Source of the DNA: Escherichia phage phiSTEC1575-Stx2k
Sequence record: OQ243220.1
Length of the DNA stretch: 46,647 nucleotides
Direction: 5' to 3' (one strand)
In this document: piece by piece, positions 21,937-22,647 of the stretch
Layout: the number at the start of each line of letters is the position of its first letter
Position numbering within the stretch: position 1 is the first letter of the stretch
Translations under genes and position numbers: made by a program
The notes under the pieces: generated by a model
What the model saw: the letters and a program-made list of their open reading frames with translations, nothing else
What the model was told of the DNA's origin: nothing
Database searches by the model: none

Positions 21937-22218
21937 ATGTACGCACTGAAAAAAATCACGGTAATGGAAGATGGGCGTCAGGTTGAAGAAGTGCATGTTC
22001 TGGGGAATATGTATCGCCTGGAATTTTACCCGCGCAACACTCACCTTGCTGCCCAGGTGGAGTATTGTCTGGATGGAAATGTGCCATGCATTTCGGTGGA
22101 AAAAACGGATGAGGCCTACATCACTACGCTGGCGGGTGACACGGTTCGTTGTATCTGTCGCGGTGACACTAAAGCCAGGAATGAAATAGCCAGATGCCGC
22201 ACCCAGGGCAGTAAATAA
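21937..22218 (+). CDS. Hypothetical Cys-containing small protein
   Basis: 93-aa ORF with strong GGAGG RBS. Confidence 0.5.
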   Translation: MYALKKITVMEDGRQVEEVHVLGNMYRLEFYPRNTHLAAQVEYCLDGNVPCISVEKTDEAYITTLAGDTVRCICRGDTKARNEIARCRTQGSK

Positions 22219-22227
22219 AAAAACAAA

Positions 22228-22258
22228 ACCCCGGCTGCTGGAACAGTCCGGGGTTTTT
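22228..22258. terminator. Bidirectional intrinsic terminator
   Basis: ACCCCGG-13 nt-CCGGGGT stem flanked by an A-run and a T-run. Confidence 0.6.
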
Positions 22259-22349
22259 AGTTTTCACGTCAAAGAGGAAATTGTGAGTAGTGAGTACGGA
22301 GAAAATCCTCGTGGGAAAGTATAAAAGATTCTTTTTGAGGTTGTCCATT

Positions 22350-22463
22350 ATGAAAGGTATTGAAGTGGAAACTCCCGCGAGCCTTGATTTGACAAGGGCT
22401 GCGGCCTTTGCAATTCGCCTTGTGGCGGTCGCTGTTCTGATTTGGGCTGTGCGTTGGTGGTGA
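22350..22463 (+). CDS. Candidate 37-aa hydrophobic peptide
   Basis: MKGIEVETPASLDLTRAAAFAIRLVAVAVLIWAVRWW, not in the ORF track; GAGG upstream; ends 1 nt before the next gene. Confidence 0.25.
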   Translation: MKGIEVETPASLDLTRAAAFAIRLVAVAVLIWAVRWW

Positions 22464-22464
22464 C

Positions 22465-22647
22465 ATGAACCGAAAACACTGGACACACAGAATGCCGAGA
22501 ACGACGGCGAAATGGGCACTGGTAGCGATACCGGTGCCTTTTTTATTGGTGGGATGCGTTAGTCTGAATAAGGCGCGCCAGCTTTTCGATACCGCGTCTC
22601 AGGTCTGTCAGCTTATTGATGGCGTTCTACGGTGTACGCAGAACTGA
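22465..22647 (+). CDS. Small lipoprotein (60 aa)
   Basis: Lipobox LLVGC after a signal-like N-terminus; three Cys in the mature part. Confidence 0.4.
   Translation: MNRKHWTHRMPRTTAKWALVAIPVPFLLVGCVSLNKARQLFDTASQVCQLIDGVLRCTQN

What the first reader, a model, noticed from the sequence alone, without database searches (positions are those of the whole stretch)
21937..22647. No recognisable Rz/Rz1 spanins; instead a Cys-rich 93-aa protein and a tandem 37-aa hydrophobic peptide plus 60-aa lipoprotein
Downstream of the endolysin, where lambdoid phages encode the spanins, I find a 93-aa Cys-containing protein, a bidirectional terminator, then a 37-aa peptide with a C-terminal hydrophobic helix (22350-22463, absent from the ORF track) 1 nt upstream of a 60-aa lipoprotein with lipobox LLVGC and three Cys. 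This could be an unusual two-component spanin, a small membrane toxin-like peptide with a partner, or unrelated cargo.
Basis: partly seen in the sequence, partly recalled or inferred. Interest (0 to 1): 0.45.

Follow-up and report, generated by a model that had tools for sequence, protein, structure and literature searches.

The report
Tiny lipoprotein in the spanin slot
This Shiga-toxin prophage lacks the usual two-protein system (Rz/Rz1) that breaks the outer membrane at lysis; in that position sits a conserved 60-residue lipoprotein that probably does the job alone, with a small membrane peptide and an unrelated 93-residue cargo gene inserted just upstream.

Summary
All three small ORFs are real genes under purifying selection: dN/dS is 0.15 for the 93-aa protein, 0.08 for the 37-aa peptide and 0.27 for the 60-aa lipoprotein. 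No Rz/Rz1, other lipoprotein or i-spanin-like ORF exists in the window.

The three genes are not one unit.
- **60-aa lipoprotein:** it is the constant last gene of the phiP27-type lysis cassette. In about 160 related loci it follows the endolysin, most often after a 14-nt gap. It occurs with three holin families, two endolysin families, and both myovirus and lambda-like virion modules.
- **Same slot as Rz/Rz1:** canonical Rz/Rz1 occupies exactly this position in one E. coli relative and in Proteus relatives.
- **Origin:** its signal-peptide region resembles SfII/SfV-type Rz1. Its mature part is only a 29-residue amphipathic helix with two conserved Cys.
- **Prior annotation:** SpaninDB (2018) already lists the phiP27 orthologue as an o-spanin, but the i-spanin paired with it there is not conserved.
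- **37-aa peptide:** an optional membrane-protein module, also found upstream of canonical Rz/Rz1.
- **93-aa protein:** mobile late-operon cargo.

Best reading: an o-spanin-derived lipoprotein that disrupts the outer membrane without an i-spanin. The function is inferred, not shown.

The parts
20829..21221 (+). Holin, Phage_holin_8 family; first gene of the phiP27-type lysis cassette
   Evidence: Pfam PF16931 E 8e-24, phrog_198
21211..21486 (+). Second holin or antiholin, Phage_holin_3_7 family
   Evidence: Pfam PF05449 E 4e-22, phrog_217
21489..21866 (+). Soluble M15 endolysin (L-alanyl-D-glutamate peptidase type), followed by a terminator-like hairpin at 21881-21908
   Evidence: Pfam PF13539, phrog_465 E 3e-74; RefSeq annotation; hairpin
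21937..22218 (+). 93-aa cytoplasmic protein (phrog_33497). It is mobile late-operon cargo inserted between the endolysin and the terminator. It is not part of the outer-membrane step.
22216..22264 (.). Bidirectional intrinsic terminator: CCCCGG...CCGGGG stem flanked by an A-run and a T-run. It travels with the 37-aa gene as one module.
   Evidence: A hairpin with a different stem sequence occupies the same position upstream of p37 in S21/R21 cassettes.
22350..22463 (+). p37: 37-aa small membrane protein (phrog_4493). It has a conserved 16-residue N-terminal tail and a C-terminal TMD. Its stop codon lies inside the RBS (GGTGGTGA) of the next gene. It is an optional module.
   Evidence: dN/dS 0.084 against 1.9-3.0 off-frame. 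Family of 212 clusters. Found upstream of the lipoprotein or of Rz/Rz1. Best Kyte-Doolittle window 2.4-2.6 at residues 17-37. Short and long forms are aligned.
22465..22647 (+). 60-aa outer-membrane lipoprotein precursor (phrog_7528). Residues 1-30 are the signal peptide and Cys31 (22555-22557) is lipidated. The mature 29-residue amphipathic helix carries conserved Cys48 and Cys57. Proposed outer-membrane-disrupting lysis protein.
   Evidence: The N-terminus is 53% identical to SfII Rz1.
22513..22546 (+). Stable hairpin (11 pairs, GCGA loop) followed by U6, inside the signal-peptide coding part of the lipoprotein gene. It is terminator-like.
   Evidence: dG -21.8 kcal/mol, z -4.4. The stem is nearly invariant across Escherichia, Salmonella, Citrobacter and Lelliottia. 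Synonymous divergence in this segment is lower: pS 0.13 against 0.21-0.26.

Best explanation
**Proposed function.** The 60-aa ORF encodes a small outer-membrane lipoprotein that is the third-step (outer-membrane) lysis gene of the phiP27-type lysis cassette. It probably descends from an SfII/SfV/Mu-type o-spanin (Rz1) and now works without an i-spanin.

**Proposed mechanism (inferred).**
1. The gene is transcribed only as part of the Q-antiterminated late operon.
2. The precursor is exported, lipidated at Cys31 and sorted to the inner leaflet of the outer membrane, because residue +2 is Val rather than Asp.
3. Its 29-residue amphipathic helix, possibly oligomerised through Cys48/Cys57 disulfides, is too short to reach the inner membrane while the peptidoglycan layer is intact.
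4. Once the holins release the M15 endolysin and the wall is destroyed, the helix can act on the membranes. It could bridge to the inner membrane pressed against it, or destabilise the outer membrane directly. Either would complete lysis.

**The other two genes.** The 37-aa peptide is a separate, optional small inner-membrane protein module (terminator plus gene). It has been inserted immediately upstream of the outer-membrane gene in several cassette types, and its role is unknown, perhaps modulation of the last lysis step. The 93-aa protein is unrelated late-operon cargo.

**Shown versus inferred.** Shown: gene reality, cassette membership, positional equivalence with Rz/Rz1, and absence of an i-spanin. 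Inferred: localisation, mechanism and function.
For: **Constant position in the cassette**
- In 80 IMG/VR loci found through the lipoprotein and 80 found through the Holin_3_7 protein, the gene always follows the endolysin. The most frequent arrangement is M15, a 14-nt gap, then the lipoprotein (36 of 100 scored loci).
- In Citrobacter it starts 18 nt after the endolysin, and in Lelliottia it overlaps the endolysin's end.

**Modularity**
- It occurs with Holin_8/Holin_3_7 or a lambda-S-type holin (PF05106), and with M15 or GH108 endolysins.
- It occurs with HNH/TerL or Nu1/A packaging modules.
- It occurs in the myovirus phiP27 and in this lambda-like siphovirus.

**Same slot as canonical spanins**
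- Locus L190 has Holin_8, Holin_3_7 and M15, then a 15-nt gap, then Rz with embedded Rz1, and no lipoprotein.
- Proteus cassettes with the same two holin families carry Rz/Rz1 after the endolysin.
- The same RBS and first codons (GGTGGTGAYATGARCCG) precede either gene.

**Complementary distribution**
- Phage GER2 has intact Rz/Rz1, and its copy of the lipoprotein is a pseudogene with a frameshift and three stops.

**Descent**
- Residues 2-31 are 53% identical to the N-terminus of SfII Rz1 (pairwise E 2e-10; E 5e-3 against the whole phage collection).

**Selection and conservation**
- dN/dS is 0.27 overall and 0.22 in the mature part.
- Three Cys and the helix pattern are conserved across Escherichia, Salmonella, Citrobacter, Cronobacter and Lelliottia.
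- 91 of 100 copies are intact 60-codon ORFs, and 98 of 100 start with ATG.

**Structure**
- AF2 predicts one helix through the mature part.
- The hydrophobic moment is 0.43, reached by 0.6% of shuffles.

**No i-spanin**
- None is found in the window or in the complete phiP27 genome.

**Prior annotation**
- SpaninDB lists the phiP27 orthologue as an o-spanin (PMC6139136).
Against: - There is no experimental evidence for any member of the family.
- No homology to Rz1 is detectable beyond the signal peptide. The mature domain matches no Pfam or NCBIfam model, and a profile search of 1.8 billion proteins finds only 23 small relatives.
- Signal-peptide similarity can be convergent.
- A 29-residue mature domain (4.4 nm as a helix, about 10 nm extended) cannot span the periplasm, so the canonical spanin mechanism cannot apply. 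The proposed mechanism has no precedent.
- Positional replacement by Rz/Rz1 was seen in only one E. coli locus.
- Two loci (L143, L149) have neither gene, so the step may be dispensable.
- Laboratory lysis of lambda does not need spanins unless divalent cations stabilise the outer membrane (established knowledge). A spanin-less cassette could therefore be viable, with the lipoprotein doing something else.
Confidence: 0.55

Rival explanations
1. Mini two-component spanin. The 37-aa peptide, or its 48-aa and 44-aa relatives in other cassettes, is the inner-membrane partner of the lipoprotein. It would be inserted N-out/C-in, as Kongari et al. speculated for unconventional i-spanins. The pair would bridge the two membranes after wall degradation.
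For: - The peptide's stop codon is 1 nt from the lipoprotein's start, so the two genes are translationally coupled.
- The peptide is under strong purifying selection (dN/dS 0.084).
- It has a conserved 16-residue tail and one TMD.
- Variants with GH108 endolysins carry two small TMD proteins before the lipoprotein.
Against: - The lipoprotein occurs without any such peptide in about half of the cassettes, including the isolated phages phiP27 and pPE4 and the Citrobacter and Lelliottia members.
- The same peptide sits upstream of complete canonical Rz/Rz1 in S21/R21 cassettes.
- The 16 + 29 residues reach at most about 16 nm fully extended.
- BLAST finds no similarity between the peptide and the Rz N-terminus.
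Confidence: 0.12
2. The lipoprotein is not a lysis protein. It would be a late-expressed outer-membrane factor such as a receptor-masking or superinfection-exclusion lipoprotein (like T5 Llp or Cor), or a lysogenic-conversion factor (like Bor). On this reading the cassette is truly spanin-less.
For: - It is a small outer-membrane lipoprotein with conserved Cys, like Llp (established knowledge).
- The region between the lysis genes and cos is a known hot-spot for cargo in lambdoid phages. The 93-aa gene, KilA-N/Ant genes and Ais-like genes are all inserted here.
- Two loci lack both the lipoprotein and Rz.
Against: - It stays with the endolysin rather than with tail or receptor-binding modules. 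It is present in both the myovirus phiP27 and lambda-like siphoviruses, and with different packaging modules.
- It is co-oriented with the endolysin and is either 14-18 nt downstream of it or overlapping it.
- It shares its RBS with Rz in the same slot.
- It is decayed in a phage that has Rz/Rz1.
- A terminator-like hairpin inside the gene argues against expression in the lysogen.
Confidence: 0.15
3. The lipoprotein and the 37-aa ORF are decaying remnants of an ancestral Rz/Rz1 pair and have no current function.
For: - The signal-peptide region is similar to SfII Rz1.
- The 37-aa ORF lies in the frame that Rz would occupy relative to Rz1, and it ends in the downstream RBS.
- The short form looks like a deletion derivative of the 48-aa form.
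- Some copies are pseudogenes.
Against: - Both are under purifying selection in their own frame only.
- The mature domain is the most constrained part of the lipoprotein.
- 91 of 100 copies are intact.
- The family is conserved across at least five genera with the same Cys pattern.
- The 37-aa gene coexists with full-length Rz.
Confidence: 0.07
4. The 37-aa peptide is a type-I-toxin-like small hydrophobic peptide. It would be controlled by an antisense RNA that starts in its 5' leader and ends at the bidirectional terminator.
For: - It is a small hydrophobic peptide.
- A minus-strand promoter-like site TGGACA-18-TATACT lies at 22347-22318.
- The terminator works on both strands.
- Sub-threshold Rfam hits fall on exactly that minus-strand interval: rnk leader E 0.05 and P22 sar RNA E 0.75.
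Against: - The count of promoter-like sites in the region is no higher than in shuffles.
- Both Rfam scores are far below their gathering thresholds.
- The predicted antisense RNA would not cover the SD or the start codon.
- The peptide is always co-oriented with, and coupled to, a lysis gene inside the late operon.
Confidence: 0.07

Closest known systems
SpaninDB entry for phage phiP27 (Kongari et al. 2018, PMC6139136): 'separated' two-component spanin, singleton i- and o-spanin families
   Same: The phiP27 o-spanin listed there (20706-20861, 51 aa) is the orthologue of this lipoprotein, 82% identical. It was already noted as the shortest spanin in the database, with 62 periplasmic residues in total.
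   Different: - The listed i-spanin (20348-20542) is a TTG-start ORF antisense to a 90-aa ORF. It is found in only 3 of about 200 related loci and is absent here.
- The listed o-spanin start (Met10) is not conserved, whereas the ATG nine codons upstream is.
- That entry is a prediction only, with no experiment behind it.
Rz/Rz1 two-component spanins (lambda type, PF03245/PF06085; SfII/SfV/Mu gp23.1 type)
   Same: - Gene position directly after the endolysin.
- Outer-membrane lipoprotein signal.
- Conserved periplasmic Cys.
- An N-terminal region similar to SfII-type Rz1.
- Interchangeable with Rz/Rz1 in the same slot.
   Different: - There is no i-spanin.
- The mature domain is 29 residues and helical, against 40-75 residues (proline-rich in lambda-type Rz1).
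- It is not embedded in or overlapped by another gene.
- It cannot span the periplasm.
Unimolecular spanin (T1 gp11)
   Same: A single gene product with a lipoprotein signal that would handle the outer-membrane step alone.
   Different: gp11 has a C-terminal TMD that anchors it in the inner membrane and a long beta-rich periplasmic domain (established knowledge; PMC6139136). This protein has no C-terminal TMD and is far shorter.
Disruptin (phiKT gp28, cationic antimicrobial-peptide-like lysis protein; bioRxiv 10.1101/515445)
   Same: A small amphipathic helix proposed to breach the outer membrane without spanning the periplasm, in a phage without spanins.
   Different: gp28 is highly cationic and is not a lipoprotein (knowledge from that paper). 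This protein is lipid-anchored, has a net charge of +1 and carries conserved Cys.
Small accessory membrane proteins of lysis (LambdaSo Lcc6, Mu releasin gp25)
   Same: Like the 37-aa peptide, these are small single-TMD proteins that turned out to be extra lysis factors.
   Different: There is no sequence similarity. Lcc6 is encoded far from the lysis cassette and acts at the holin step. The role of the 37-aa peptide is unknown.

Membership tests
Two-component spanin (i-spanin + o-spanin) | o-spanin: SPII signal with lipobox, and no Lol-avoidance Asp at position +2 | tested here: met
   Lipobox L-V-G-C31 with Val at +2, conserved in the family
Two-component spanin (i-spanin + o-spanin) | i-spanin: type II inner-membrane protein with an N-terminal TMD and a long, mostly coiled-coil periplasmic domain, encoded embedded in, overlapping or adjacent to the o-spanin gene | tested here: not met
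   No such ORF in the window or in the whole phiP27 genome. The adjacent 37-aa ORF has a C-terminal TMD and only a 16-residue tail.
Two-component spanin (i-spanin + o-spanin) | Sequence membership of the Rz (PF03245) or Rz1 (PF06085) families | tested here: not met
   No Pfam match at E <= 1. The profile search finds no canonical Rz1. Only the signal-peptide region resembles SfII Rz1.
Two-component spanin (i-spanin + o-spanin) | Combined periplasmic length sufficient to bridge the inner and outer membranes (62-300 residues in SpaninDB) | tested here: not met
   29 residues alone, or 45 with the tail of the 37-aa peptide (range from PMC6139136)
Two-component spanin (i-spanin + o-spanin) | Located in the lysis cassette next to the endolysin | tested here: met
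Two-component spanin (i-spanin + o-spanin) | Required for outer-membrane disruption (spherical cells in Mg2+ when absent); complements lambda Rz/Rz1 mutants | not testable with these tools
   Needs experiments
Unimolecular spanin (T1 gp11 type) | N-terminal lipoprotein signal plus a C-terminal TMD in one polypeptide | tested here: not met
   The lipobox is present, but the C-terminal 29 residues are amphipathic, not hydrophobic
Disruptin (phiKT gp28 type) | Small, strongly cationic amphipathic peptide with no lipid anchor | tested here: not met
   The amphipathic helix is present (muH 0.43), but net charge is +1 and the protein is lipid-anchored
Receptor-masking or exclusion lipoproteins (T5 Llp, Cor) | Gene linked to the phage's receptor-binding (tail) module and specific for its receptor | tested here: not met
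   The gene is linked to the endolysin across myovirus and siphovirus backbones and different packaging modules
Type I toxin-antitoxin (for the 37-aa peptide) | Small hydrophobic toxin plus a cis-encoded antisense RNA overlapping its mRNA | tested here: inconclusive
   The peptide fits. For the antisense RNA there is only a consensus promoter match and sub-threshold Rfam hits.

The most novel reading that the evidence does not exclude
The lipoprotein would be a third kind of outer-membrane-disrupting phage lysis protein: a lipid-anchored 29-residue amphipathic helix that needs no inner-membrane partner and no periplasm-spanning complex. It would be held in check only by the peptidoglycan layer. 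It is widespread in enterobacterial prophages, including Stx2e and Stx2k converting phages. The 37-aa peptide would be a previously unrecognised small membrane lysis factor shared by this system and by canonical Rz/Rz1 cassettes.
Probability: 0.35. Interest if true: 0.7.

Novelty: new variant of a known kind. Interest (0 to 1): 0.5.

Why it matters
About one in seven phages of Gram-negative hosts has no recognisable spanin, and only one alternative, the phiKT disruptin, has been demonstrated. This cassette gives a candidate second alternative in E. coli, where the lambda Rz/Rz1 complementation assay and the spherical-cell phenotype make the question directly testable.

The family is common. 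It occurs in at least 175 of 5,426 complete E. coli genomes, in 260 IMG/VR stretches, and in Shiga-toxin phages, where lysis is what releases the toxin. It is often unannotated or annotated in the wrong frame.

The result also corrects a database entry: the phiP27 i-spanin in SpaninDB is not conserved. Finally, it points to a conserved 37-aa membrane peptide that accompanies two different outer-membrane systems.

Tried and rejected
- **Family libraries.** Pfam and NCBIfam give nothing for any of the three small proteins. PHROGs gives only families of unknown function: 33497, 4493 and 7528.
- **Remote homology.** A profile search of 1.84 billion representative proteins with the lipoprotein alignment returns 23 hits, all small relatives, with no link to canonical Rz1.
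- **Longer Rz1 remnant.** tblastn extended the SfII Rz1 match past the lipoprotein's stop codon. Beyond residue 31 the alignment is noise. The idea of a longer degraded Rz1 was rejected.
- **37-aa peptide as a truncated Rz TMD.** BLAST finds no alignment, and the peptide coexists with full-length Rz. Rejected as the main reading.
- **SpaninDB's phiP27 i-spanin as the partner.** Rejected: it is absent from the window and from all but 3 loci.
- **The two holins as substitute i-spanins.** Rejected: the same holin pair works with canonical Rz/Rz1 in Proteus and in L190. A distant family member follows a lambda-S-type holin instead.
- **Rfam.** Only sub-threshold hits.
- **Upstream start for the 37-aa gene.** A longer form starting at GTG 22311 (50 aa, as in the PHROG profile) was considered. 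The conserved upstream 'LRL' codons coincide with the GAGG Shine-Dalgarno sequence. In Salmonella variants the residues change to 'VEA', which can still encode GAGG in another frame (this is inference). The 37-aa start is therefore preferred.
- **tblastn of the 37-aa peptide against isolated phages.** It finds only GER2, because the low-complexity filter masks the TMD.
- **Genome-contig scan.** It gave only 4 loci, since the collection holds one genome per species.
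Full report
**Context**

The window is an Stx2k-converting lambdoid prophage. The stretch examined (window 21880-22700) is 100% identical to E. coli STEC1575 and STEC005. The lysis region is a mosaic, in this order:
- an S21-type class II holin (19848-20063);
- YdfR (20068-20412);
- a minus-strand 90-aa gene (20378-20650);
- a complete phiP27-type cassette where the R21 endolysin would be: Holin_8 (20829-21221), Holin_3_7 (21211-21486) and a soluble M15 endolysin (21489-21866).

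The finding lies downstream of these genes. It is followed by cos at about 23040 and nu1 at 23238.

**Checking the observation**

The three ORFs, the hairpin terminator and the 1-nt spacing are exactly as described.

I collected about 200 related loci from IMG/VR, GTDB genomes, RefSeq E. coli and public assemblies, and computed pooled Nei-Gojobori dN/dS.

| Gene | dN/dS in its own frame |
|---|---|
| 93-aa protein | 0.15 |
| 37-aa peptide | 0.084 |
| 60-aa lipoprotein | 0.27 |
| M15 endolysin (neighbour) | 0.09 |
| Holin_3_7 (neighbour) | 0.28 |

The two shifted frames of these genes give 0.8-3.0. All three small ORFs are therefore real protein-coding genes.

No canonical spanin is present:
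- Five Rz and three Rz1 references give no tblastn hit other than the lipoprotein's own N-terminus.
- A six-frame lipobox scan finds only this gene and two implausible ORFs.
- A scan for N-terminal-TMD proteins finds only StxB and Lom.

**The lipoprotein**

*Family.* There are 105 clusters at 90% identity in Escherichia, Salmonella, Citrobacter and Cronobacter. A profile search of 1.84 billion representatives adds only a few more distant members, all 44-111 aa.

*Conserved pattern.* A positively charged n-region (MxRKHWTHRxPR), an h-region, the lipobox LVGC, and then a mature peptide CVSL[DE]KARxxFxxxxxVCxx[IV]xx[VI]xxC. The mature part is the most constrained segment, with dN/dS 0.22.

*Structure.* AF2 predicts a single helix through the mature part, pLDDT about 75. 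The helix is significantly amphipathic: muH is 0.43 and only 0.6% of shuffles reach it. Net charge is +1.

*Start codon.* Met10 is not conserved (V, T, A or Q in relatives), whereas the ATG at codon 1 is present in 98 of 100 copies. The 60-aa form is therefore correct, not the 51-aa form used in SpaninDB.

**Gene neighbourhood**

- In 80 IMG/VR loci retrieved through the lipoprotein, every locus with upstream DNA shows Holin_8, then Holin_3_7, then an M15 or GH108 endolysin, then optional inserts, then the lipoprotein.
- Over the 100 loci that could be scored, the commonest form is M15, a 14-nt gap, then the lipoprotein (36 loci).
- In 80 loci retrieved through Holin_3_7, about 70 carry the lipoprotein.
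- In Citrobacter braakii the gene starts 18 nt after M15.
- In Lelliottia it overlaps the end of a GH108 endolysin that itself follows a lambda-S-type holin (PF05106).
- Packaging modules downstream vary between HNH/TerS/TerL and Nu1/A.
- phiP27 is a myovirus, while this prophage is lambda-like.

The gene therefore travels with the endolysin, not with holin type, virion type or receptor module.

**Equivalence with spanins**

- Locus L190 has the same Holin_8/Holin_3_7/M15 genes. Fifteen nt after the endolysin it carries a canonical Rz with embedded Rz1, and it has no lipoprotein.
- Proteus prophages with the same holin families also carry Rz/Rz1 after the endolysin.
- The sequence GGTGGTGAYATGARCCG (RBS plus first codons) precedes either Rz or the lipoprotein.
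- Phage GER2 has intact Rz/Rz1, and its lipoprotein copy carries a frameshift and three stop codons.
- Residues 2-31 of the lipoprotein are 53% identical to the N-terminus of the SfII o-spanin, a family that includes SfV, SfIV and Mu gp23.1. Beyond the lipobox there is no similarity.

**Prior art**

Kongari et al. 2018 (PMC6139136) list phiP27 as a 'separated' two-component spanin with singleton families. They note it as the shortest in the database, at 62 periplasmic residues.
- Their o-spanin (20706-20861) is the orthologue of this lipoprotein.
- Their i-spanin (20348-20542) is a TTG-start ORF antisense to a 90-aa ORF. It exists in only 3 of about 200 loci and not in the window.
- The complete phiP27 genome has no other i-spanin-like gene.
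- I found no experimental paper on this family.

**The 37-aa peptide**

- Its family is large: 212 clusters, indexed on thousands of contigs.
- It has a conserved N-terminal tail (MK.G.E...P...D..RA.AFAI) and a hydrophobic C-terminus.
- It comes in a short form (37 aa, ending RWW) and a long form (48 aa), with chimeras between them.
- It occurs in the phiP27-type cassette before the lipoprotein.
- It also occurs in S21/R21 cassettes, 1 nt before a complete Rz/Rz1.
- It is absent from about half of the lipoprotein-bearing cassettes.
- It is always preceded by a terminator hairpin whose stem sequence differs between cassette types.
- Its last codons (RWW plus the stop) are the RBS of the next gene.

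It is an optional 'terminator plus small membrane protein' module inserted just upstream of the outer-membrane gene. Its function is unknown.

**The 93-aa protein**

- It has no signal peptide or TMD.
- Its Cys are not conserved, apart from Cys74.
- It is absent from most cassettes.
- In Proteus it lies between Q and the holin, next to two different lysis cassettes.

It is mobile late-operon cargo.

**Mechanism**

*Shown:* the lipoprotein is a conserved, selected gene in the spanin slot of cassettes that lack an i-spanin.

*Inferred:*
- It is sorted to the outer membrane, because residue +2 is Val.
- A 29-residue helix (about 4.4 nm) cannot reach the inner membrane through intact peptidoglycan.
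- After endolysin action it could bridge or perturb the membranes. This would keep the regulatory logic of spanins, with peptidoglycan as the brake, but without a periplasm-spanning complex.
- Cys48 and Cys57 lie on opposite faces of the predicted helix. They could therefore form intermolecular disulfides, as in Rz1 dimers (established knowledge).

**Verdict**

The lipoprotein is best described as an o-spanin-derived lysis lipoprotein that lacks an i-spanin: a new variant of a known kind, already flagged computationally but paired with a spurious partner. Function remains untested. Confidence in the outer-membrane-disruption role is about 0.55. Interest is moderate (0.5), because the system is common, sits in Stx phages, and is directly testable in the lambda system.

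Noticed in passing
window 22513-22546 (+), inside the lipoprotein gene: An intrinsic-terminator-like hairpin (11 pairs, GCGA loop, dG -21.8 kcal/mol, z -4.4) followed by U6 lies in the signal-peptide coding region. Its stem is almost invariant at the nucleotide level from Escherichia to Lelliottia. Synonymous divergence in this segment is about half that of the rest of the gene. It might make expression strictly dependent on Q antitermination.
   Followed up: partly
window 22222-22347 (-): A possible antisense small RNA. A consensus promoter TGGACA-18-TATACT on the minus strand points at the bidirectional terminator. Sub-threshold Rfam hits (rnk leader E 0.05, P22 sar RNA E 0.75) cover the same interval. 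The number of promoter-like sites in the region is no higher than in shuffles.
   Followed up: partly
window 19848-20650: Leftover of a second lysis cassette: an intact S21-type class II holin, YdfR and a minus-strand 90-aa gene (phrog_2411), without the R21 SAR endolysin that follows them in related prophages (L026-L032). The phiP27-type cassette has replaced R21, the 37-aa gene and Rz/Rz1. The prophage therefore carries three holin-family genes.
   Followed up: partly
L004/L202 (phiP27) 20630-20785 and 20348-20542 in record coordinates: The phiP27 annotation L32 is in a different frame from the conserved lipoprotein ORF (20679-20861). Off-frame dN/dS of the family is about 0.9-1.6, so L32 is probably a miscall. 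The ORF used as i-spanin in SpaninDB is antisense to a 90-aa ORF and is not conserved.
   Followed up: yes
window 22465-22647; NZ_CP116044, NZ_CP041437, NZ_CP076279: The lipoprotein gene is not annotated in the three RefSeq genomes that are identical to the window, although it is annotated (WP_064484544.1) in others. This is an annotation gap for a conserved gene.
   Followed up: yes
L007 3861-3995 and relatives: Cassettes with a GH108 endolysin carry a further 44-aa single-TMD ORF (MSDSIIKLARILCVVVGLSFSVMLVAIFIATAWRVLSLSGLIGG) between the 48-aa form of the peptide and the lipoprotein. It has no family match.
   Followed up: partly
L143, L149 (4728-5321, minus strand); L006 3323-3937: An Ais-like histidine phosphatase gene (LPS core heptose(II)-phosphate phosphatase family) is inserted on the opposite strand just after the lysis genes in some relatives. 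In L143 and L149 it takes the place of the lipoprotein.
   Followed up: no
window 19259-19582 (-): An IraM-like anti-adapter gene lies between stx2k and the holin, as annotated in the identical RefSeq genome.
   Followed up: no
PP818812.1 (L001): The 'Actinobacillus phage vB_Apl-pPE4' record is about 89% identical at the DNA level to this E. coli prophage lysis region. That is unexpected for a Pasteurellaceae host.
   Followed up: no
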